From: a virus
Reading direction: 5' to 3' (one strand)
Length of the DNA: 18,833 bases
Virus genome (UHGV): UHGV-0152950
Part shown: positions 1-13,197 of the stretch, piece by piece
How positions within the stretch are numbered: the stretch's first letter is position 1
How the letters are laid out: every line of letters begins with the position of its first letter
Position numbers and translations under genes: made by a program
The notes under the pieces: model-generated
Databases searched by the model: none
What the model was told of the DNA's origin: nothing
What the model saw: the letters and a program-made list of their open reading frames with translations, nothing else

Positions 1-330
1 GCAACCAGAAAACCGACGACCGTAGGTGATATCCTTCTGTACGAATACCTGGAGCCGTTAGAGCTGAAGATCAACGAGTTAGCAGAAATACTTCATGTTC
101 ATCGTAACACCGTAAGTGCTCTTGTTAATAATAATCGTAAGCTAACGATGGATATGGCATATCGCCTGGCAAAAGCATTCGATACTTCTGTAGATTTTTG
201 GATTAATCTTCAGACCGCAGTAGATCTGTGGGAAGTCGAAAATGATATGCGCGTTCAGGAAGAGTTAAGTCGTATCAATACTGCTGAAAAATTTATTTCT
301 CAGCGGAACCTGAATAAAAAAGCAGCCTGA
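1..330 (+). CDS. higA: HigA-family antitoxin (HTH, addiction module antidote protein), 5'-truncated by window edge
   Basis: Frame 1 is open from base 1 to the TAA at 328-330. Translation ...TVGDILLYEYLEPLELKINELAEILHVHRNTVSALVNNNRKLTMDMAYRLAKAFDTSVDFWINLQ matches the HigA-family HTH signature from memory. A hairpin terminator follows. Confidence 0.8.
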   Translation, partial: ATRKPTTVGDILLYEYLEPLELKINELAEILHVHRNTVSALVNNNRKLTMDMAYRLAKAFDTSVDFWINLQTAVDLWEVENDMRVQEELSRINTAEKFISQRNLNKKAA

Positions 331-348
331 TATAGTAAAACACATACA

Positions 349-379
349 AAAAGCCCACTTAGCAAGTGGGCTTTCCTTT
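349..379 (+). terminator. Rho-independent terminator-like hairpin after higA
   Basis: Stem gcccact (353-359) / agtgggc (365-371), then T-rich tttccttt. An A-run precedes it, so it could act in both directions. Confidence 0.55.
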
Positions 380-386
380 GTAATTA

Positions 387-587
387 ATGAACATTAAACC
401 TATCCGTACAGAACAAGATTATGAGGCCGCACTGCGTGCGGTCGAACCGATGTTCGATAACGAACCGGAAATGAATACTCCGGAAGGTGATTTCTTTGAG
501 GTTATGAGTCTTCTCATTGAGGAGTACGAGAAGAAACATTACCCAATTCAGCCACCATCACCTGTTGAATCTTTTAACTATCCATAA
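387..587 (+). CDS. Small protein resembling the N-terminal (non-HTH) domain of HigA-type antitoxins; possibly a gene remnant
   Basis: 66-aa ORF MNIKPIRTEQDYEAALRAVEPMFDNEPE...EEYEKKHYPI. No clear Shine-Dalgarno upstream of ATG 387 and no HTH domain follows; ends with tandem stops TAATAA. Confidence 0.4.
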   Translation: MNIKPIRTEQDYEAALRAVEPMFDNEPEMNTPEGDFFEVMSLLIEEYEKKHYPIQPPSPVESFNYP

Positions 588-608
588 TAAAAGTAATCAG
601 GATAAGCT

Positions 609-1337
609 ATGATGTCAGAAAAAGTTACAGATAATCCGTCTATAAATGAAACAGAACTAAAATCATTTTCTGAAATAATAAAAGATAAAATATTTAACAA
701 GGTTTTTGCATATGTTGTCATTTCTTTTCTAATTTTTAACTGGAAGGATATTTTAATTATATTAAAGTCAAAGGATGACATCCTATATACATTATCTATT
801 GTTTTTGTTGGTGGTAATGTCCCGTTCTTTGATAATTGGATTGTATCCCCGTGGGTTTATCACGTTGTAATCCCATTTGTTTATGGAGTATTTGCATCTG
901 TGTTAGCTCCTATTCTCACACTGAAGATATCTAAGCTAACAAGTAAATTATACACTGAAATAAGATATTTAGATGAAGCTGCTGATTATGATAAAAGAAT
1001 AGAATTGCAAAGAAAGAAAACAAAGTTAAATCAAGCAACCAATGACGCTAAATATTCAAAACAAATCTTAGATGAAAATGAAAATAAACTTAATGACCTG
1101 GCTAAGAAACAGCGAGAAATTTGCGGCGCGATAAAACTATTGCATACTGATGTTGGCAGTATTATTGAGCTATATAAAAATAAGGGGGTTAGCATTGAAT
1201 CTCCGCAAGATTTATGTGATTTTATAGTCGCTATAAAAAGCACATCATTCTATAATGATGACAAGCATTTTAATAAATTGGTGTCTGATATTTCCAGTTT
1301 GTTTGATAATACTGGAATTGATCTTTCAAAAAAATGA
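609..1337 (+). CDS. Hypothetical membrane protein, AT-rich; N-terminal hydrophobic helices plus Lys/Glu-rich coiled-coil-like C-terminus
   Basis: 242-aa ORF with SD AGGA 6 nt before ATG 609. Hydrophobic segments VFAYVVISFLIFNW, LYTLSIVFVGGNV, VYHVVIPFVYGVFASVLAPILTL. G+C is visibly far lower than flanks (roughly 30% by eye). Terminator hairpins flank it on both sides. Confidence 0.75.
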   Translation: MMSEKVTDNPSINETELKSFSEIIKDKIFNKVFAYVVISFLIFNWKDILIILKSKDDILYTLSIVFVGGNVPFFDNWIVSPWVYHVVIPFVYGVFASVLAPILTLKISKLTSKLYTEIRYLDEAADYDKRIELQRKKTKLNQATNDAKYSKQILDENENKLNDLAKKQREICGAIKLLHTDVGSIIELYKNKGVSIESPQDLCDFIVAIKSTSFYNDDKHFNKLVSDISSLFDNTGIDLSKK

Positions 1338-1342
1338 AAGCC

Positions 1343-1381
1343 CAGCATAAACTACTAGGCTATGTGTGGTTTATGCTTTTT
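1343..1381. terminator. Bidirectional terminator-like hairpin between convergent genes
   Basis: Inverted repeat agcataaac ... gtttatgct followed by TTTTTT on plus and a T-run on minus. It overlaps the stop of the minus CDS ending at 1371. Confidence 0.5.
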
Positions 1382-2564
1382 TCACGTACTCTATAAACAT
1401 CTTCTCAGCCTGTTCTTGTGGCGTTCCAGCCATGACAAGCGCATCAATGAACGCCTGCTTCTTCAGTGCGAACTGATCGGCAAGGCGTTGCTGAAGTTCC
1501 TTATTTTTCTGTTTCTCACGTTGCAAGGCCGCTTCTTTTGCAGCCGCCCGTTTTTTCTGTGCGTCTGACAACTTTCTGGCCCTGGTCAATTGGTCACGTA
1601 GCTTGTCGATCTTGCCGTTGTCCTTTGCCAGTTTTGTACTTAAAGCGGCCTGGCGCTTCTGATAGAGCCTCCATTCGCGCTTGGCGGCGTCAACGTTCGT
1701 TTTACTGCTACGATTGCGATTAAACTCCTTCTCGTCTTCTTTTGAGAAGTGTTTGGTTGTACGGCGCCGATCGTCACCAAATGCAATTTGCGTTGCGGCC
1801 TTTTGTAACGCACGAGCAATACTCATTTGCCAACTGGCGGACTGTAACCGCGTCATTGAGTGGATCACGTGTTTACAGGCGACGCCTTGTAGCTTAGGGT
1901 TACGAACTTTTGGATAGGCGTATTCTTTTGGCGGGGCCAGGGCAAAGTTACCCGCAGTAGCGATGTAACGATACCAGTATTGATGACGACCACAGTCACA
2001 ATCGAAAGACACCCGCCCAGCGCACAGTGATTTAGTGATTTTCAGAGCTGATTTATCGTCTTCTGCGATGTCATCGACCATCTGATCCCATTCTTCAAAG
2101 CGTATCCGGACGATATGGTGCTGGTGGACGGATATATCCGATGCTTCTACGCGGATATTAATCACGTTGTGGCGAAGAGATACGGGTGTAGCTCTTTTGA
2201 TACCAGATCCGTCATCCACGGCGTTATTTGCACGCTTAATATCGATTGCCTGGCTGGATGCCACCAGCTGGGCGTATGTGATGCCAGCCGTCTTGCTGTC
2301 ATATTTTTCGCGTGTTTTACTCCGTAGCTTTTCGAAACCTTTCAGGTCGTCTCGCGTGAAGAACGTGCCGCCTTTTTTCTTCCCTAACTTGAGAATATCT
2401 TCGGCGGATTTGTTCCTCAGTCTACCTGGCGTCAGCGTCCGGTGAGCTTGTCGGCGCTTACGGGTTTGTTCTTTCCTGATAAGGTCGAATAAACGCGTGA
2501 AGTCCTTAGAGGACAGGCCGTCAGTGATATAGCGCCCGTCCTGGTTTTTCAGGAAATCAGGCAT
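1371..2564 (-). CDS. Hypothetical protein with basic N-terminus, SWIM-like Cys/His motif (CxC...CxH) and long Lys/Arg/Gln-rich coiled-coil C-terminus
   Basis: 397-aa ORF. ATG at 2564 overlaps the stop of the upstream gene by 8 nt, suggesting translational coupling. Motif SFDCDCGRHQYWYRY...GVACKHVIH. No family recognised by eye. Confidence 0.8.
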   Translation of the reverse strand: MPDFLKNQDGRYITDGLSSKDFTRLFDLIRKEQTRKRRQAHRTLTPGRLRNKSAEDILKLGKKKGGTFFTRDDLKGFEKLRSKTREKYDSKTAGITYAQLVASSQAIDIKRANNAVDDGSGIKRATPVSLRHNVINIRVEASDISVHQHHIVRIRFEEWDQMVDDIAEDDKSALKITKSLCAGRVSFDCDCGRHQYWYRYIATAGNFALAPPKEYAYPKVRNPKLQGVACKHVIHSMTRLQSASWQMSIARALQKAATQIAFGDDRRRTTKHFSKEDEKEFNRNRSSKTNVDAAKREWRLYQKRQAALSTKLAKDNGKIDKLRDQLTRARKLSDAQKKRAAAKEAALQREKQKNKELQQRLADQFALKKQAFIDALVMAGTPQEQAEKMFIEYVKKA

Positions 2565-2886
2565 TTTCTATCTCCGGTTCCGCGCTCGCGTAATCACGGA
2601 TCTTGTTCCTCAGCCATGCCACATCAGGAAGAGTTAACGTGGTCCCGGCGGGCATTTCTTCCATTTCTGACTCATGGCCCACCAGCACCCGGAATACCCA
2701 GCGCAAATCTGCATTGCCATACGCCCTGTAGGCTGCAAGGTCTGAACGATATACTTCATCAATCTTTATCGTGTACTGGAAATTATCAGAGTGATACTCC
2801 GATACCCGCTTAATCATTTCCTGGTGAAACAGCGCACGAAAAATATCGTCTTCAATGTACCTGTCGTCGAGTCTGCTATAGCCCAT
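2557..2886 (-). CDS. Hypothetical protein, first gene of a two-gene operon
   Basis: 109-aa ORF with ATG at 2886 and SD-like GAGAGG upstream. Overlaps the downstream 397-aa gene. Confidence 0.7.
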   Translation of the reverse strand: MGYSRLDDRYIEDDIFRALFHQEMIKRVSEYHSDNFQYTIKIDEVYRSDLAAYRAYGNADLRWVFRVLVGHESEMEEMPAGTTLTLPDVAWLRNKIRDYASAEPEIENA

Positions 2887-3079
2887 AACAAAGCCTCTCA
2901 GTCATAACCTGGGGGAAACTGTATGCAGGGTGTGAAATGTGAGAAACAGACAGGCCACCAGTTCAGGGGGATGTGGTTCATAAATCCCCTCACTGGTGAC
3001 AAGTGACTTTCATTAATCTTTGTGCGGGGGCCAGCTTCATTTGCTGGCATTAGATTAAAAATTAAACGGAGTGAATGAC

Positions 3080-3214
3080 ATGGATGTTATATTCGAATTA
3101 TTAATGCTAATTGATCTGTTTATGAACGCTTCATTGACCACGCAAATACTGGCGTCAATATTTTTGTTACTCTTCTACCTGGTATTGAGGGAGTTAACAA
3201 AGCTACTAATGTGA
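3080..3214 (+). CDS. Putative small hydrophobic peptide (44 aa), candidate membrane peptide
   Basis: Not in the ORF track (under 60 aa). SD ACGGAG about 8 nt before ATG 3080. Product MDVIFELLMLIDLFMNASLTTQILASIFLLLFYLVLRELTKLLM. AT-rich; its stop abuts the stop of the convergent minus CDS. Confidence 0.3.
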   Translation: MDVIFELLMLIDLFMNASLTTQILASIFLLLFYLVLRELTKLLM

Positions 3215-3868
3215 TCAAAGTATCACGGTATCTTCATCAACTTCTTTCCCAGCCAGTGACTTTGGCTGGGAGGTGCCTGCTTCAACTTTTTCATGCCCAA
3301 TAATGGACAGGAACGAAGCGAGTATGCCTGTTTTTTGCTCTTTCTCGACTGCGCCGGTCATCTGCTCTACGTAATCCGCACTGGCAACGTTGTGGTATAC
3401 GGTCGCGTAGCAACACAGGATCATAAGAATATGTTCCGGCCTGATGTCCTGCCAGTTCACCCGGTAGACTTCTTCTCCGTTACCATTGTATTCGGTATCA
3501 ACGATAGAGTCGGGGATTTCGAAAGCACCTTTGTTATTTTGCGGCAGGGATAATAGTTTCTGGAGTTTTAACTCTCTGTATCTTTCCATCCCGACGATGA
3601 TTGCTGCTCTACCATCGGCATGACGGGTCTTGAGAGTCACCTGACTTGCTCCGGTGCCAGCGGAGATCGTTGGCGTAATTTCGTCTACCAGTACCTTAAA
3701 TTTGCTTTTCCGCAGGGCTGCTATAGCTGGAGGAATTTTTTGCTTTTGCTCCAATGCTGACGCGGGAAGGGGTTTTACTTCGTTAATAATGAGAGCACCG
3801 TCTTTCAGTATTGCAGTGAGCATTTGAGGCTTGCTGGTGGTCAGGCTGAATATTGCGATCTTTTCCAT
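3215..3868 (-). CDS. Hypothetical protein
   Basis: Strong SD GGAGGAAGG before the internal ATG at 3868 (MEKIAIFSLTTSK...). The longer ORF to 3910 lacks an SD. 217 aa, no recognised motifs. Confidence 0.7.
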   Translation of the reverse strand: MEKIAIFSLTTSKPQMLTAILKDGALIINEVKPLPASALEQKQKIPPAIAALRKSKFKVLVDEITPTISAGTGASQVTLKTRHADGRAAIIVGMERYRELKLQKLLSLPQNNKGAFEIPDSIVDTEYNGNGEEVYRVNWQDIRPEHILMILCCYATVYHNVASADYVEQMTGAVEKEQKTGILASFLSIIGHEKVEAGTSQPKSLAGKEVDEDTVIL

Positions 3869-3890
3869 TGTCCTTCCTCCACGGATGACG

Positions 3891-3916
3891 GATACAAAAA
3901 AAGGCCGCACATGGCG
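3891..3916 (-). other. GC-rich hairpin with flanking T-run, terminator-like, immediately upstream of a gene start
   Basis: ggccgc acat gcggcc with A7 on plus (T7 after the hairpin on minus). It sits between the hairpin-less divergent intergenic region and the start of CDS 3215-3868. Confidence 0.3.
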
Positions 3917-4136
3917 GCCTGCTTTGGCGTTATGACTCCCTACCGCGCTTCGGCTGAAAGTTAATCGTCAAAAGAACCTTCAACGGGAGCCGTTAGCGCG
4001 ATGGATTATGTGCAGTTTGTGATTTCCAAAATAGTGTCAACCACTTTTTGTGGATTTTATTTTTTGACCGAAATTTGGCCTAAATCATGTTGATGTAGTT
4101 AATTGTTTTTATAACATAAAACTTCATTTTGTTTAC

Positions 4137-4760
4137 ATGAAGGATGGTGTAGTGAAGTTAAGGGTTTTAGGGGCCGCGCTCGCGGCTATGTTGGGATGCG
4201 TATCTGCTAATACTGCCAATGCAACTGCGTTACCTGCACAATTCAGGGCAGGGCAGCAGGTTATGAATAACGCTGGTGGGGATCATTCACAAGCGGCCAT
4301 TATGGACTTTTGCAAGAGGGAGGGCATTCCATTACGGCCTGTTGGAACTCAGTTTATTGGTAAAACTGACTTTTGCGTTTTTGCATATACAGCATATCTG
4401 ACGGACAAAGCTATAACAAAAACAGGTTATTCAACCAAAGATACTCTTTCCAGATTAAGTCAGGGATGGCAGCAATTCGAAGTGTATCGCCAGCAAGGAT
4501 TAGGTGAGTTATTGCAACCACTTTTTATGCTTGCGTTGGTGCCAGAGGGGCAGCAATTTTTGGTTAAAAAGGGAATGCTTCGCCAAAGTGATATTGCCGG
4601 GTTCGATAGCATGATGGCTTATGAGCGCAAACTAACCGAGCAGCGAAATAAAAAACCATCTGCTTCATGTGTGCAAAGTAAAACAGCAGAATACAGTGCA
4701 GTAGCCGGGCCTTTAGCCAAACAAATGGCAGAGCAATGGTGTAAAAAATACGGGCAATAA
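4137..4760 (+). CDS. Hypothetical secreted/periplasmic protein (Sec signal peptide)
   Basis: 207-aa ORF. Signal-peptide-like N-terminus ...KLRVLGAALAAMLGCVSANTANA. The alternative GTG start at 4152 has a better SD (AAGGA). Confidence 0.7.
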   Translation: MKDGVVKLRVLGAALAAMLGCVSANTANATALPAQFRAGQQVMNNAGGDHSQAAIMDFCKREGIPLRPVGTQFIGKTDFCVFAYTAYLTDKAITKTGYSTKDTLSRLSQGWQQFEVYRQQGLGELLQPLFMLALVPEGQQFLVKKGMLRQSDIAGFDSMMAYERKLTEQRNKKPSASCVQSKTAEYSAVAGPLAKQMAEQWCKKYGQ

Positions 4761-4780
4761 GTTACGCAGCGGAGGCAGAA

Positions 4781-5173
4781 TTGAAAAGATTGGCTATTGC
4801 TTTACTGGCGTCTTTCCCTTTGATCGCGAGCGCCGGAAATTTACAAGTTAAGTGCGGTCGGTTTGATATAAAAATCTATCCGGATGCCATATTTCTGAAT
4901 GGGAATAAGGTTGATAACGCACACCGAAAAACTGAATCTGACGTAATGAGCTATGTGTTCCAGGAGTATGCGGAGATGGGGGGAACTTACACGCTGTACT
5001 CGCTGGATGTTCCTTCTCGCGGTGATATGACATTATCCCATCAATGGCAGAACGCCGATGGCGAAGCTCTGCGCGAGGTTAAAACAGAAAAATGTGGCAC
5101 TTTCCATTCTTTTAAAGGGAAAGCGCCAAATGTTAAATCTGTGCTTGAAAAACAGCGCGCAGGTGAGCTTTAA
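4781..5173 (+). CDS. Hypothetical secreted protein (Sec signal peptide)
   Basis: TTG start at 4781 with strong SD GGAGG 5 nt upstream. N-terminus MKRLAIALLASFPLIASAGNLQ. 130 aa. Confidence 0.7.
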   Translation: MKRLAIALLASFPLIASAGNLQVKCGRFDIKIYPDAIFLNGNKVDNAHRKTESDVMSYVFQEYAEMGGTYTLYSLDVPSRGDMTLSHQWQNADGEALREVKTEKCGTFHSFKGKAPNVKSVLEKQRAGEL

Positions 5174-5540: not shown

Positions 5541-6482
5541 TTAACTAACAATCCAGTCCATAGCAATAACATCCTCTGGAGCTAAATCAATAGCATGGAT
5601 TTTCCCGTCACGGATGGTGCGCCAGTGCTTTCGTGATCCACCTTCGGGCCACACCCATATACCTTCAGGCCAGGAAGAACGACGACACACTGTTGCGTAT
5701 CCAGTCCTGAGCTTCTCTCTGACGGTATGTAGTGACAGATTATCCTTTGGGCTTTCAGGCACAGGATGGTGGATTGCCTGAAACATCCCCATCTTTGGAT
5801 GATACCAGCGTTTATTGCGTGGTTCTGCCTCCGACATCACCTGCTTAAAGGCTTTCCGGAAGGGGGCCAGGGCCACAATGGAGCGTCGCGCAAGCAAACC
5901 ATCTGGAGTTAAAAACTCATGCGTATCGGTGGGAATCCGGAAAGCGTTAACCAGGTTGCGACATTTGGCTTCAGTCAGGCCACATTTCGCCGCCAGCTGG
6001 CGGTAGCCAATGTAGCCTTCCGGAATATTGCCTTTCTTTATTTGCTCGAGTGTTTCAGCGACCATCGATACTTGTGCTGATACCTCGGCTACCTGGGCAT
6101 TTACGGCGTTGATCCGGCGTTCATGCTCAAGATGCATTTGCGCCATTTCAGCCAGAATTTCGGCTTTTGATTTTAACTGTACCCGGGCATTCTCCAGTTC
6201 GCGCCAGCGGTCCACCAGCCGGGCGGTGAATTCCGGAGAGAGCTGCGCGACGACAATGATGCTGTCTCGTTTTCCTTGTTCGCCTTCAAAGATGTAAGCC
6301 TTGGAAAATCGACGAGGGCCAACTGATTGTTTATTTTCAATTTCCACAGATTGTGGAAATTGGATCACACTCTTTTTAGCCAGTGTTTCGATAGTTCTCT
6401 TCACACTATCTGGGCGACTTCCTACCAGTTCCGCGATCTCAATACTGGTCATTGTCGCTTTTTGAGAGATGGACAGATTCAT
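5541..6482 (-). CDS. ant: Phage antirepressor, Rha/Ant family
   Basis: 313 aa. N-terminal MTSIEIAELVGSRPDSVKRTIETLAKK resembles the Rha regulatory-protein domain. Its ATG overlaps the stop of the upstream Icd-like gene (ATGA), as in the P1 immI icd-ant arrangement. Confidence 0.75.
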   Translation of the reverse strand: MNLSISQKATMTSIEIAELVGSRPDSVKRTIETLAKKSVIQFPQSVEIENKQSVGPRRFSKAYIFEGEQGKRDSIIVVAQLSPEFTARLVDRWRELENARVQLKSKAEILAEMAQMHLEHERRINAVNAQVAEVSAQVSMVAETLEQIKKGNIPEGYIGYRQLAAKCGLTEAKCRNLVNAFRIPTDTHEFLTPDGLLARRSIVALAPFRKAFKQVMSEAEPRNKRWYHPKMGMFQAIHHPVPESPKDNLSLHTVREKLRTGYATVCRRSSWPEGIWVWPEGGSRKHWRTIRDGKIHAIDLAPEDVIAMDWIVS

Positions 6483-6697
6483 CAGTGCACCTCCACGCAG
6501 TTCATCGGCAGATTCCAGTAATTGAGGATCTCCATCGCATCAAGAGTGAAGCGAGCAGCAAAAATGCAGGGTTCTTCGGGAAGGTATGAGCGCGCTTCTG
6601 CTTCGGTTGCAGCCATGACGCAGATATACAGGTGTTTTTGGCAGGAATAGAAACGCCAGATAAATTCAGAATGAGTTGGGGTAGGGGTAGTAGCCAT
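6482..6697 (-). CDS. icd: Icd-like protein (host cell division inhibitor family)
   Basis: 71-aa ORF MATTPTPTHSEFIWRFYSCQKHLYICVMAATEAEARSYLPEEPCIFAARF... resembles the Icd-like family from memory. Perfect SD AAGGAGG upstream; translationally coupled to ant. Confidence 0.6.
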   Translation of the reverse strand: MATTPTPTHSEFIWRFYSCQKHLYICVMAATEAEARSYLPEEPCIFAARFTLDAMEILNYWNLPMNCVEVH

Positions 6698-6754
6698 AAT
6701 GGCAGCCTCCTTTTGCTAATTTAAGGAGCTACCGCGTGAGGTTCCAATCTCAAT

Positions 6755-6835
6755 GGCGGTAGCACTGACTGGGTTGGAACTACCGGCGCAAAAGGGAACC
6801 GGCCTGCCTTTCGGCAGCCCAGCCAGCACTACCAT
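6755..6835 (-). ncRNA. Candidate C4-like antisense RNA (boundaries uncertain)
   Basis: Minus-strand hairpins GGCUGCC-GAAA-GGCAGGCC and GGUAG-(loop UUCCAACCCAGUCAGUG)-CUACC. The loop GUUCCAA is complementary to UUGGAAC upstream (about 6930) and just before the icd SD (about 6745). The RNA could instead be the 6883-6960 hairpin plus terminator. Confidence 0.3.
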
Positions 6836-6882
6836 TGATCTCTGAGCTAAACGCTACGTATGGCTGTGCGATGGCATGACAC

Positions 6883-6904
6883 AAAAAAAGACGCTTTCGG
6901 CGTC
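6883..6904 (-). terminator. Rho-independent terminator (minus strand)
   Basis: Hairpin gacgc tttcg gcgtc (6890-6904) followed on minus by a U7 run (plus A7 at 6883-6889). Confidence 0.5.
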
Positions 6905-7009
6905 TGTGTCGCCTTTTGCATTATCCGGGGTTCCAATCCCGGCACCCGTTTTTCTAAGGTGCCGTAGAAATATACCCCACGATAATGCCAGGGCGCAACA
7001 GTCAGTATT

Positions 7010-8983: not shown

Positions 8984-9297
8984 GCTGGCGGGGATGGGGA
9001 AGGGCAGAAATCATGATACTCCGCCAGTGCGCCGGAACTATGACGGTCGAGAGTATCGGGAAGCTGATCGGTCGTACCGGTGATGCCGTCAGGACTAAAG
9101 CGCGAGAGCTGGGGATCAGAATGATTCTGAAAGGTGACTTTCACCAGTCAGCCAAATATCGGCAGAGCGATATAGAGCTGGCGCGGCAGCTTCATCAGTG
9201 CGGTGTTCCCCGCCGTGAGATCGCAGAAAAACTCGAAATGCCCCTGGGCATGATTAATCAGTACGTTTATTTCGAAAGGAGAGTGCATGAAGTCTGA
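8980..9297 (+). CDS. Small putative DNA-binding (HTH-like) protein
   Basis: GTG 8980 overlaps the upstream stop (GTGA); alternative ATG at 9013. Segment MTVESIGKLIGRTGDAVRTKARELGI looks HTH-like. Confidence 0.6.
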   Translation: MSWRGWGRAEIMILRQCAGTMTVESIGKLIGRTGDAVRTKARELGIRMILKGDFHQSAKYRQSDIELARQLHQCGVPRREIAEKLEMPLGMINQYVYFERRVHEV

Positions 9298-9721
9298 AGG
9301 TTTAACGCCAGAGCAACTGGCGGAGCGTAACGCTCAGTATGTGACGGAAATTTTCCGTCTTGAGAAAGAGCGCGCGGCGCTGGCGGCGGAGAATGCAGGG
9401 CTAAAGGCGATATGTGATGACTGTCGCAGGTTCATCATGAATGGGGTGCAGATGGGTTATGTCAAGGTGCCAACAGCGGAAACAGATCCAGACCTTGAGA
9501 CAATACGTATTGCTATATCACCACAAAAGCCCATTCCAGCCACCGATGCTTTCCTGGCTGAAGTACGGGCGCAGGGGGTAGAGATGTACGCAGATAACCT
9601 CGACAACGGAGCAGACGACGCAGAACGAGGTGGTTTTGATTATGCCGTTAAGTTTCTACGCAGTGAAGCGTCTAGTGTACGTTTGTTCGCCGACCAGCTT
9701 CGCAAAGGAGGCAGCCAGTGA
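9287..9721 (+). CDS. ead/Ea22-like family protein
   Basis: SD AAGGAG 6 nt before ATG. C-terminal TDAFLAEVRAQGVEMYADNLDNGADDAERGGFDYAVKFLRSEASSVRLFADQLRKGG is shared almost exactly with CDS 12604-13197. Confidence 0.8.
   Translation: MKSEGLTPEQLAERNAQYVTEIFRLEKERAALAAENAGLKAICDDCRRFIMNGVQMGYVKVPTAETDPDLETIRIAISPQKPIPATDAFLAEVRAQGVEMYADNLDNGADDAERGGFDYAVKFLRSEASSVRLFADQLRKGGSQ
9536..9720. repeat. Direct repeat copy 1 (about 185 bp, 2 mismatches versus copy 2)
   Basis: Aligned by eye to 13011-13196. Covers the 3' coding end of an Ea22-like gene plus the SD and start codon of the next gene. Confidence 0.85.
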
Positions 9722-12317: not shown

Positions 12318-12617
12318 ATGAGTCAAGGTAACGGTGACGGAGCTGCAAAGTGCAGAATCTCCACTTGTTTGATTAATGGCAGAAAAATAGAACCGTGCGC
12401 GGCGCTGGCACAATCTCTGGAGCAGGATGCTGAATACACGACGCGAAAAGGCCTGCTGAAATACAAAGTCTATAACCATGAATTAATTCATTCACAGGAC
12501 CTGATCATGCTGCGGTCTGGTGAATTTTCTAAATCGCCTATTCGAGTTTCATTTTGCCCATTCTGTGGTGAAAGTCTGAAAACGTGGGAAGCGGAGGCAA
12601 CCAGTGAGCAAAATTAA
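12318..12617 (+). CDS. Small Cys-containing (zinc-ribbon-like) protein
   Basis: 99 aa with CRISTC ... CPFCG pairs; weak SD. Confidence 0.55.
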   Translation: MSQGNGDGAAKCRISTCLINGRKIEPCAALAQSLEQDAEYTTRKGLLKYKVYNHELIHSQDLIMLRSGEFSKSPIRVSFCPFCGESLKTWEAEATSEQN

Positions 12618-13197
12618 CTATCAAGAACTGCGCGAGGCGGCGGAACAGGCAACGCAAGATGAATGGGTAGCATATATTTTGCCGGGTCATAACGGCATTT
12701 ATCCTGCGCGCACGTCTGAGGGTAGGCATTGCGGATACTTTATTGACTGGCCTGGCGTCTGTCAGGGGCGGGAGAGCATCAGCATCAGAACCTACGCAGT
12801 GAATTGCAATGACGCATGGCTAAACACCGAAGGTGATGACATCTCCGGCTCATACGTTAAGTACAAAGACCATCAGGAAGTGGTTGCCGCTCTTGAGGCC
12901 AAGTGCGCGGCGCTGGCAGTGGAGAATGCGGCGCTTAAACAGTCGGAGAAGGAATTTAATAACTTCTGTCGTCAGGAGTACTACGGTTGGGAGGACAACT
13001 TCACGGAAACCCCAGCCACCGATGCTTTCCTGGCTGAAGTACGGGCGCAGGGGGTAGAGATGTACGCAGATAACCTCGACAACGGAGCAGACGACGTAGA
13101 ACGAGGTGGTTTTGATTATGCCGTTAAGTTTCTACGCAGTGAAGCGTCTAGTGTACGTTTGTTCGCCGACCAGCTTCGCAAAGGAGGCAACCAGTGA
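12604..13197 (+). CDS. ead/Ea22-like family protein
   Basis: GTG start with SD GGAGG. N-terminus MSKINYQELREAAEQATQDEW; C-terminal 60 aa near-identical to CDS 9287-9721. Confidence 0.8.
   Translation: MSKINYQELREAAEQATQDEWVAYILPGHNGIYPARTSEGRHCGYFIDWPGVCQGRESISIRTYAVNCNDAWLNTEGDDISGSYVKYKDHQEVVAALEAKCAALAVENAALKQSEKEFNNFCRQEYYGWEDNFTETPATDAFLAEVRAQGVEMYADNLDNGADDVERGGFDYAVKFLRSEASSVRLFADQLRKGGNQ
13011..13196. repeat. Direct repeat copy 2
   Basis: See copy 1 at 9536-9720. Confidence 0.85.

What the first reader, a model, noticed from the sequence alone, without database searches (positions are those of the whole stretch)
1371..2886. Overlapping two-gene operon of unknown function with a SWIM-like Cys/His motif: candidate novel system
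A 109-aa gene and a 397-aa gene overlap by 8 nt on the minus strand, implying coupled expression. The large protein has a basic N-terminus, a CxC...CxH motif (SFDCDCGRHQYW...CKHVIH) and a long Lys/Arg/Gln-rich coiled-coil tail (KRAAAKEAALQREKQKNKELQQRLADQ). Neither matches a family I can name, and the pair sits in accessory DNA between the higA locus and the immI-like module.
Basis: partly seen in the sequence, partly recalled or inferred. Interest (0 to 1): 0.55.

Follow-up and report, generated by a model that had tools for sequence, protein, structure and literature searches.

The report
Phage P1 tail genes 26 and 25
The two overlapping genes are not a new system but the already annotated copies, in a D6/P1-type phage-plasmid, of phage P1 late tail genes 26 (a solved baseplate protein) and 25 ("tail stability"), although the larger protein does carry a conserved SWIM-like zinc-finger core and its molecular role is still unknown.

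Summary
ORFs 2557-2886(-) (109 aa) and 1371-2564(-) (397 aa) overlap by 8 nt. The large protein is basic (pI 10.1), carries CxC...CxH and ends in a long helix.

The interpretation does not hold. The window is a D6-like P1-family phage-plasmid (96.8% nt identity to phage D6). Both genes are annotated there as homologues of P1 genes 26 and 25.

P1 gp26 is the baseplate "plug", related to T4 gp53, and is modelled in two P1 cryo-EM structures. P1 gp25 is the genetically defined "tail stability" protein. It was weakly detected in virions, is absent from both cryo-EM models, and HHpred gave no match above 50% probability.

Defence-system models give no significant hit. The 26-25 pair is core late-operon DNA. 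The accessory cargo (higBA, orf73) is inserted beside it.

Verdict: already known genes, with a modest residual question about how gp25 works.

The parts
2557..2886 (-). Gene 26 orthologue (109 aa, acidic, pI 4.8). It is the baseplate 'plug' or wedge-to-hub glue protein, related to T4 gp53.
   Evidence: PHROG 1269 'baseplate wedge subunit', E 2.3e-36. PDB chain 9ay5_S/9vzk 'Gp26' of P1, E 1e-16, 40.6% identity to P1 gp26. D6 orf75 is annotated 'similar to P1 gene 26'. The structural role comes from PMC12810830 and bioRxiv 10.1101/2025.07.21.665459.
1371..2564 (-). Gene 25 orthologue (397 aa, 45.6 kDa, pI 10.06), the P1-type 'tail stability' protein.
   Evidence: PHROG 1722 'tail protein', E 1.6e-196 over residues 2-396. 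98.2% identity to D6 orf74 and 57% to P1 gp25 over residues 1-334. 298 database relatives, the named ones called 'phage tail protein' or 'tail stability protein'.
2557..2564 (-). The 8-nt overlap ATGCCTGA (start of gene 25 and stop of gene 26). A GGAG Shine-Dalgarno lies at 2575-2572.
   Evidence: Sequence read. The same -8 spacing occurs in 55 of 79 related loci.
2295..2564 (-). gp25 residues 1-90: basic, helical N-terminal region (25 K+R against 13 D+E, pI 10.4).
   Evidence: This region is absent from the short homologues in Gram-positive myophages.
1779..2294 (-). gp25 residues 91-262: conserved core domain, a three-stranded sheet plus helices that carries the SWIM-like site.
1845..2012 (-). 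SWIM-like motif, residues 185-240: C189-x-C191 ... (38 residues including the invariant E214, P218, N222, G227) ... C230-K-H232.
   Evidence: These residues are invariant in alignments of 18, 25 and 72 sequences. The motif is present in 141 of 149 representatives. Pfam SWIM is a weak hit in 21 of 72 members, best E 0.0024.
1431..1694 (-). gp25 residues 291-378: one long K/R/Q/E-rich helix, a probable coiled coil, followed by a short helical end module.
   Evidence: DSSP on the AF2 model gives H291-378 and H383-396. The P1 record notes myosin-like similarity for residues 277-403 of gp25. The sequence is poorly conserved but the character is kept.
1339..1361 (-). Terminator-like hairpin followed by a T-run, 10 nt after the gene 25 stop codon.
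   Evidence: AGCCTAGTAGTTTATGCTGGGCT TTCATTTTTT. It is a consensus match only and has not been tested.
2894..2899 (-). GAGAGG Shine-Dalgarno, 7 nt upstream of the gene 26 ATG.
   Evidence: Sequence read.
3215..3910 (-). mat (maturation control protein) homologue, the next gene upstream on the same strand. No terminator-like site is predicted between it and gene 26.
   Evidence: D6 orf78 is annotated 'similar to P1 gene mat'. PHROG 1837. Terminator scan.

Best explanation
The locus is the first part of the P1-type late tail operon (26-25-7-24-6-5 in P1), carried here by a D6-like phage-plasmid.

Gene 26 makes the small acidic baseplate 'plug'. Six copies glue the wedge ring to the central hub.

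Gene 25, translationally coupled to it, makes a 45-kDa, strongly basic protein with three parts: a basic helical N-terminus, a compact core held by a SWIM-like Cys2-Cys-His (probably zinc) site, and a roughly 90-residue coiled-coil helix.

Shown: the identity of both genes, conservation of the pair, the conserved metal-ligand signature, and the placement of core-domain homologues in tail or neck gene clusters of four distant myophages and next to baseplate wedge genes in a fifth.

Inferred: gp25 acts late in tail or neck completion, most likely as a low-copy, flexibly attached and therefore unresolved virion-associated protein. The SWIM-like core would dock it onto a partner or onto DNA. The coiled coil would oligomerise it. 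Without it, finished tails do not stay extended or joined (the 'tail stability' phenotype).

My confidence is about 0.97 for the identity and about 0.4 for this mechanism.
For: Identity: 96.8% nt identity to phage D6, with D6 orf74 and orf75 annotated as P1 gene 25 and 26 homologues. PHROG 1722 and 1269 match over full length. P1 Gp26 is in PDB 9ay5 and 9vzk. The P1 operon LP26-26-25-7-24-6-5 is annotated in the P1 record.

Pair conservation: 79 of 80 loci. A gp26-like gene is also upstream in the distant phage ABMM1 and in loci L006, L009 and L010.

gp26 role: the two cryo-EM papers.

gp25 phenotype and virion signal: it is annotated 'tail stability'. It gave 2 peptides and 8.4% coverage in purified P1 virions. 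That paper grouped gp25 with gp7 and gp16 as weak virion signals; gp7 also gave 2 peptides, and both gp7 and gp16 were later built into the cryo-EM models as stopper and wedge. CRISPRi knock-down gave an efficiency of plating of 0.11.

Morphogenetic placement of core homologues: Bacillus HSE3 and SP-15, Listeria LIS04 and Streptococcus GXN1 carry it between the neck and sheath genes. Thermus phiLo carries it beside a baseplate wedge gene.

Basic character: all 129 full-length representatives have pI above 9.4, median 10.0.
Against: gp25 is not among the proteins modelled in either P1 cryo-EM study and has no sequence relative in the PDB. A purely transient assembly role is therefore equally compatible with the data.

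The virion MS signal is weak. CRISPRi scored gene 25 as non-essential, with only about a 10-fold drop in plating.

I could not read the original mutant description (Walker & Walker 1983), so 'tail stability' rests on annotations derived from it.

No promoter was identified upstream of gene 26 in this window.
Confidence: 0.6

Rival explanations
1. gp25 is a non-structural assembly factor: a chaperone or catalyst for tail completion, neck or baseplate assembly, comparable to the roles proposed for T4 gp26 and gp51. It leaves before the virion is finished, and the peptides seen in virions are carry-over.
For: It is absent from both P1 cryo-EM models and no family member is in the PDB. The MS signal is weak, and the authors themselves raise a co-factor role. 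Knock-down has only a mild effect, which fits a catalytic requirement.
Against: gp7 and gp16, the other two proteins that paper listed as weak virion signals of unclear role, proved to be true virion parts. A 45-kDa protein with a 90-residue coiled coil and pI 10, kept across 622 clusters, is an unusual design for a chaperone. Unresolved does not mean absent: the tape measure Sit and the fibres are also unresolved.
Confidence: 0.3
2. gp25 is a DNA-end-binding or pilot protein carried in the neck or tail lumen. It would leave with the DNA and protect or hold its ends, functionally like T4 gp2 or Mu N.
For: The whole family is strongly basic. The core is SWIM-like, a fold I recall being found in DNA-binding proteins. 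The virion signal is low-copy. A lumenal or DNA-bound protein would be invisible to symmetric reconstruction. T4 shows a positional parallel: gene 53 lies next to 4 (head closure), 2 (DNA end protector) and 3 (terminator), and P1 has 26-25-7 (stopper)-24 (terminator).
Against: There is no homology to T4 gp2, which has no cysteine (hhalign probability 0.1%). The recorded phenotype concerns tails, not DNA fate. There is no direct evidence of DNA binding. SWIM domains, as I recall, also mediate protein-protein contacts.
Confidence: 0.12
3. One reading: a novel two-gene accessory or defence-like system located in accessory DNA.
For: Pfam, NCBIfam and PADLOC give no significant hits for the large protein. 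Toxin-antitoxin and immunity genes lie nearby.
Against: Both genes are orthologues of P1 late morphogenetic genes. The pair belongs to the conserved 26-25-7 block, and it is the neighbouring DNA that varies. gp26 is a solved baseplate protein. PADLOC E-values of 0.017 are noise.
Confidence: 0.01
4. gp25 is a DNA-binding regulator of late gene expression rather than a morphogenetic protein.
For: It is a basic zinc-finger protein. The Xanthomonas phage Rb1 homologue is annotated 'transcriptional regulator MvaT'.
Against: The MvaT label has no support in my family scans. P1 annotations describe a tail defect with particles made. It was detected in virions. It is always encoded inside structural gene clusters.
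Confidence: 0.03

Closest known systems
Phage P1 gp25 / phage D6 orf74 ('tail stability' protein; PHROG 1722)
   Same: It is 98.2% identical to D6 orf74 and 57% identical to P1 gp25 over residues 1-334. It has the same length, the same position after gene 26, the same Cys/His signature, and a coiled-coil tail.
   Different: The C-terminal ~60 residues diverge from P1. In the D6 lineage the gene is separated from gene 7 by inserted cargo and is followed by a terminator-like hairpin.
Phage P1 Gp26 (PDB 9ay5, 9vzk), the baseplate plug related to T4 gp53
   Same: It is 40.6% identical over 96 residues (E 1e-16 to the solved chain). It matches PHROG 1269 'baseplate wedge subunit', has the same operon position and is similarly small and acidic.
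   Different: It is 16 residues shorter at the N-terminus than P1 Gp26. The Pfam Phage_gp53 and Phage_tail_X matches are below threshold.
SWIM zinc finger (Pfam PF04434; for example ZSWIM8, PDB 9rwz)
   Different: The spacer of 36-45 residues holds a conserved insert (E..[FY]PK[IV]RNP), which from memory is much longer than in typical SWIM fingers. Scores are below Pfam's gathering cut-off. Metal binding is untested.
T4 gp2 (DNA end protector) and the T4 53 | 4-2-3 neighbourhood
   Same: It is a basic protein encoded between the gp53-type baseplate gene and the head-closure and terminator genes, so the position is analogous.
   Different: There is no sequence relationship (hhalign probability 0.1%). 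T4 gp2 has no cysteine at all. This is an analogy only.
Short SWIM-core proteins of large myophages (Bacillus HSE3 gp067, SP-15 gp038, Listeria LIS04_65, Streptococcus GXN1, Maribacter Molly gp126, Thermus phiLo_129; PHROG 4315)
   Same: The core is homologous (hhalign 98.9%, E 2.7e-17) and carries C-x-C...P-[AD]-x-x-N-P...C-K-H. The genes lie in neck, tail or baseplate clusters.
   Different: They are only 130-289 aa and lack the basic N-terminus and the long coiled coil. Their neighbours are not detectably gp26-like or gp7-like.

Membership tests
P1 gp25 family (PHROG 1722, 'tail stability protein') | Full-length sequence similarity to P1/D6 gp25 | tested here: met
   PHROG 1722 E 1.6e-196, residues 2-396 on profile positions 3-403 of 410. 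tblastn gives 98.2% to D6 and 57% to P1.
P1 gp25 family (PHROG 1722, 'tail stability protein') | Position in the late tail operon, directly after gene 26 and before gene 7 | tested here: met
   The gene 26 homologue overlaps it by 8 nt. A gp7 homologue lies downstream on the same strand in D6 and in 76 of 76 loci with enough flank, here beyond about 2 kb of inserted cargo.
P1 gp25 family (PHROG 1722, 'tail stability protein') | Loss of function gives unstable or defective tails | not testable with these tools
   This is known only for P1 amber mutants, through record annotations and PMC9024508. The original paper is not held.
P1 Gp26 / T4 gp53-type baseplate plug (PHROG 1269) | Sequence similarity to the solved P1 Gp26 chain | tested here: met
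   9ay5_S E 1e-16 over residues 4-99. PHROG 1269 E 2.3e-36.
P1 Gp26 / T4 gp53-type baseplate plug (PHROG 1269) | Match to the Pfam models Phage_gp53 or Phage_tail_X (LysM-like) above the curated cut-off | tested here: not met
   13.6 and 13.2 bits against cut-offs of 21 and 22. The relationship to T4 gp53 rests on HHpred and cryo-EM in the cited papers.
SWIM zinc finger (Pfam PF04434) | CxC-x(n)-CxH ligand signature, conserved across the family | tested here: met
   C189, C191, C230 and H232 are invariant. The motif is present in 141 of 149 representatives. The spacer of 36-45 residues is atypically long.
SWIM zinc finger (Pfam PF04434) | Score above Pfam's gathering threshold (19.6 bits) | tested here: not met
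   The native protein gives no hit. It reaches 13.6 bits only after the insert is deleted. 21 of 72 relatives give weak hits, best E 0.0024.
SWIM zinc finger (Pfam PF04434) | SWIM-type fold (strand-CxC ... CxH-helix) | tested here: inconclusive
SWIM zinc finger (Pfam PF04434) | Binds zinc | not testable with these tools
   This needs metal analysis of purified protein.
Known anti-phage defence systems (PADLOC) | Significant match of either protein to a defence-system model | tested here: not met
   The best hits are E 0.017 (PDC-S66 and GajB fragments), which is noise.
T4 gp2 DNA end protector | Sequence or profile similarity to T4 gp2 | tested here: not met
   hhalign probability 0.1%. T4 gp2 has no Cys.

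The most novel reading that the evidence does not exclude
The gp25 family is a zinc-finger (SWIM-like), DNA-binding, low-copy virion protein. It would sit in the neck or tail lumen of P1-type and many other myophages and leave with the genome. It could then be the unidentified protein that, as I recall from the classical literature, holds the ends of P1-delivered linear DNA together and protects them, including the stable circular protein-DNA complexes of abortive transductants. That would make it a functional analogue of T4 gp2 or Mu N with an unrelated fold.
Probability: 0.12. Interest if true: 0.7.

Novelty: already known. Interest (0 to 1): 0.27.

Why it matters
As submitted, a candidate novel system, the finding does not matter: the genes are annotated orthologues of two classical P1 tail genes.

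The residual value lies in gp25. It is one of the few P1 proteins reported as virion-associated (weak MS signal) that the two cryo-EM studies read here did not place, and HHpred gave no clue to its role.

This analysis adds three observations:
- Its conserved core is a SWIM-like Cys2-Cys-His module.
- The family is uniformly very basic.
- The core alone recurs in neck or tail gene clusters of distant myophages infecting Bacillus, Listeria and Streptococcus, and beside baseplate wedge genes in a Thermus phage.

Together these give concrete, cheap experiments (ligand mutants, zinc content, DNA binding, virion copy number) for a protein needed by the standard transducing phage and by the widespread P1/D6 phage-plasmids that carry resistance genes.

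Tried and rejected
- Pfam, NCBIfam and PADLOC scans of both proteins and their neighbours found nothing significant for gp25.
- PDB sequence searches with the protein and with a 25-sequence profile found no relative of gp25.
- Homology to T4 gp2 (DNA end protector) is rejected: there is no Cys in gp2 and hhalign gives 0.1% probability.
- A Pfam scan of the C-terminal end modules of ten members, looking for a SAP/HeH-type DNA-binding motif, gave no consistent hit.
- A search for a P1 LP26-type late promoter motif upstream of gene 26 found no match there. The sigma-70 scan found nothing above chance.
- The search for related loci with the diverse alignment A2 failed because it had no conserved stretch. 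I used A1 instead.
- I first took the ~170-190-aa gene downstream of gp25 in the most distant clade (ABMM1, Rb1, L006, L010; PHROG 4597) to be gp7-like. hhalign and BLAST show no detectable relation to P1 gp7, so that claim is dropped. gp7 linkage holds only for P1/D6-like loci and for L007-L009.
- The neighbours of the short Gram-positive homologues are not detectably gp26-like or gp7-like.
- Walker & Walker 1983, Lobocka 2004 and the D6 genome paper are not held in the library.
- The literature searches I ran for SWIM plus phage terms, and the P1 papers I read, made no link between P1 gp25 and SWIM.

Full report
**1. Observation**

The ORF listing returns a 397-aa ORF at 1371..2564(-) and a 109-aa ORF at 2557..2886(-). 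On the minus strand the junction reads GGAGATAGAAAATGCCTGA. The ATG of the large gene (2564-2562) lies 8 nt before the end of the TGA of the small gene (2559-2557), and a GGAG sits 7 nt upstream. A GAGAGG precedes the small gene.

The large protein has pI 10.06, with 84 K+R against 49 D+E. It has a basic N-terminus (residues 1-90, pI 10.4) and the motif C189-D-C191 ... C230-K-H232. The AF2 model gives a single helix over residues 291-378. The description is therefore accurate.

**2. Identity**

The stretch 1200-4000 is 96.8% identical to Escherichia phage D6, a P1-family plasmid prophage. The first 6 kb are 99.3% identical to ~92-kb Shigella and E. coli plasmids.

In the D6 records the two genes are orf74 ('tail protein, similar to P1 gene 25') and orf75 ('baseplate, similar to P1 gene 26'). 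The next gene upstream is the mat homologue.

PHROGs matches both proteins over their full length: phrog_1722 'tail protein' at E 1.6e-196 and phrog_1269 'baseplate wedge subunit' at E 2.3e-36. Pfam, NCBIfam and PADLOC give nothing significant.

The small protein matches the solved chain 'Gp26' of P1 (PDB 9ay5_S, 9vzk) at E 1e-16. The large protein is 98.2% identical to D6 orf74 and 57% identical to P1 gp25 over residues 1-334.

In P1 the genes form the start of the late operon LP26-26-25-7-24-6-5.

**3. What is known about the two proteins**

Two P1 cryo-EM studies place six copies of gp26 between the wedge (PmgA, gp16, BplA) and the hub, as a 'plug' related to T4 gp53.

For gp25 the record is thinner:
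- It is annotated 'tail stability', from the amber mutants of Walker & Walker 1983.
- It gave 2 peptides and 8.4% coverage in purified P1 virions.
- HHpred found no match above 50% probability, and the authors left open a structural or a co-factor role.
- Neither cryo-EM paper lists it among the modelled proteins.
- No family member is found in the PDB, by single sequence or by profile.
- CRISPRi knock-down lowered plating to 0.11 and the gene was scored non-essential.

That MS study listed gp7 and gp16 alongside gp25 as weak virion signals of unclear role. gp7 also gave 2 peptides. Both were later built into the models, as the stopper and a wedge protein.

**4. Is the pair conserved together?**

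In 80 related loci from IMG/VR, a gp26-like gene lies directly upstream on the same strand in 79. In 55 of them the overlap is the same 8 nt.

A gp7-like gene follows on the same strand in all 76 loci with enough flank. It abuts gene 25 in 44 loci. In the other 32, all of the D6 type, it is separated by 294-2878 nt of inserted DNA. In the window that insert holds the higBA remnants and orf73, and a terminator-like hairpin (1361-1339) follows gene 25.

So the pair is core DNA, and the accessory DNA is the neighbour. A gp26-like gene also precedes the gp25 homologue in much more distant elements:
- It is adjacent in Acinetobacter phage ABMM1 and in the metagenomic phage-plasmid loci L006 and L009.
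- It lies 490 nt upstream in L010 and 1242 nt upstream in L008.
- It was not detected in Xanthomonas phage Rb1.

In that distant clade the downstream ~170-190-aa gene belongs to another family (PHROG 4597). It is not detectably related to P1 gp7.

**5. The SWIM-like core**

An exhaustive profile search finds 622 cluster representatives at E <= 0.001. Of the 149 listed sequences, 141 contain C-x-C-x(36-45)-C-x-H, and 7 of the 8 without it are fragments of 93-230 aa.

C189, C191, E214, P218, N222, G227, C230, K231 and H232 are invariant in alignments reaching down to 23% identity.

A model of residues 88-262 built on 72 sequences has pLDDT 94.8 and pTM 0.90. It places CxC just after a strand and CKH at the start of a helix.

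When the 72 family members are scanned singly against Pfam, SWIM (PF04434) is by far the most frequent weak hit: 21 members, best E 0.0024, against 4 members for the next family. The window protein itself reaches SWIM only when the 22-residue insert is removed (13.6 bits against a cut-off of 19.6).

I conclude that it is SWIM-like, with an unusually long and conserved insert. It is not a Pfam-level member, and metal binding is untested. The papers I could search or read make no such link for P1 gp25.

**6. Wider distribution of the core**

Short proteins of 130-289 aa carry the same core (C-x-C...P-[AD]-x-x-N-P...C-K-H). They occur in Bacillus phages HSE3 and SP-15, Listeria phage LIS04, Streptococcus phage GXN1, Maribacter phages Molly and Colly, and Thermus phage phiLo.

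They hit PHROG 4315 and 1722. They align to the gp25 family with hhalign probability 98.9% and E 2.7e-17.

- In the four Gram-positive phages the gene lies between the gp13-like neck gene and the sheath gene, close to 'tail completion/Neck1' and 'sheath stabilizer' matches.
- In phiLo it lies beside baseplate wedge genes.
- The Maribacter neighbourhood is unannotated.

Wherever the neighbourhood is annotated, it is a tail, neck or baseplate gene cluster.

**7. Mechanism**

Shown: the identity of both genes, translational coupling, conservation of the pair, the conserved ligand set, the basic character of the whole family (129 of 129 full-length representatives above pI 9.4, median 10.0), and the morphogenetic gene context.

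Inferred: gp25 acts at a late step of tail or neck completion. I favour a low-copy, flexibly attached virion-associated protein, at about 0.4. The reasons are the virion peptides, the later structural confirmation of gp7 and gp16, which that MS study had listed with gp25 as weak signals of unclear role, and an architecture of docking core plus coiled coil.

A transient assembly factor is nearly as likely, at about 0.3.

A DNA-end-binding or pilot role is the most interesting reading that the data do not exclude, at about 0.12. It rests on the basic charge, the SWIM-like fold and a positional parallel with the T4 neighbourhood 53 | 4-2-3. There is no homology to T4 gp2.

A defence system or a transcription regulator is very unlikely.

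**8. Verdict**

However, the 'novel system in accessory DNA' is an annotated pair of classical P1 tail genes, so the finding is already known.

The residual interest is modest. It is a conserved SWIM-like zinc-finger tail or neck protein whose place in the particle is still unknown.

Noticed in passing
window 1-1370 (between gene 25 and the gene 7 homologue, which lies outside the window): The gap between genes 25 and 7 is a cargo insertion site in the D6 lineage. In 32 of 76 related loci it holds 294-2878 nt of variable DNA, and in the other 44 the two genes abut. In the window it holds HigA-like genes and orf73 (609..1337, PHROG 8191, unknown function).
   Followed up: partly
window 387-587 (+), with 569-677: The second HigA-like gene is only 66 aa here against 119 aa in D6 (orf72). 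The window aligns to D6 at 1-568 and at 678 onward, with about 200 nt fewer in between, so the gene appears truncated by a deletion or replacement.
   Followed up: partly
window 6752-6839 (-) and 6884-6962 (-): Rfam finds a C4 antisense RNA (76.7 bits) and an isrK RNA (62.5 bits) just upstream of the icd-like (6482..6697) and Ant/Rha-like (5541..6482) genes.
   Followed up: no
window 9536-9721 and 13012-13197: A 186-nt direct repeat, 99% identical, forms the C-terminal ends of two otherwise different Ea22-like ORFs (9287..9721 and 12604..13197). It looks like recent recombination or gene conversion between paralogues.
   Followed up: no
window 4137-5173 (+): Two ORFs with signal-peptide-like N-termini (207 aa and 130 aa; PHROG 12786 and 13864, unknown function) lie roughly where D6 has its simB-like gene. 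The nucleotide alignment to D6 stops at about 4188, so this cargo differs from D6.
   Followed up: no
L004 5800-6879 (Xanthomonas phage Rb1, PQ569993): The gp25-family homologue of phage Rb1 is annotated 'transcriptional regulator MvaT'. This is probably a mis-annotation, since it carries the full gp25 core motif and lies two genes upstream of the major capsid gene.
   Followed up: partly
L093 3741-4670, L095 3923-4939, L098 3919-4944: In Bacillus and Listeria myophages the gene just upstream of the short SWIM-core gene encodes a protein with an acidic N-terminal half and an extremely basic stretch (for example KKKKKKRLSPAQKQALAKARKKANTGAAKKARAKSMKVRRNR). This resembles the basic regions that are fused to the core in P1-type gp25.
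   Followed up: no
L024 (IMGVR_UViG_2526164601_000021): This is the only one of 80 related loci where no gp26-like ORF was detected upstream of gene 25. It may be a frameshift or an assembly error.
   Followed up: no
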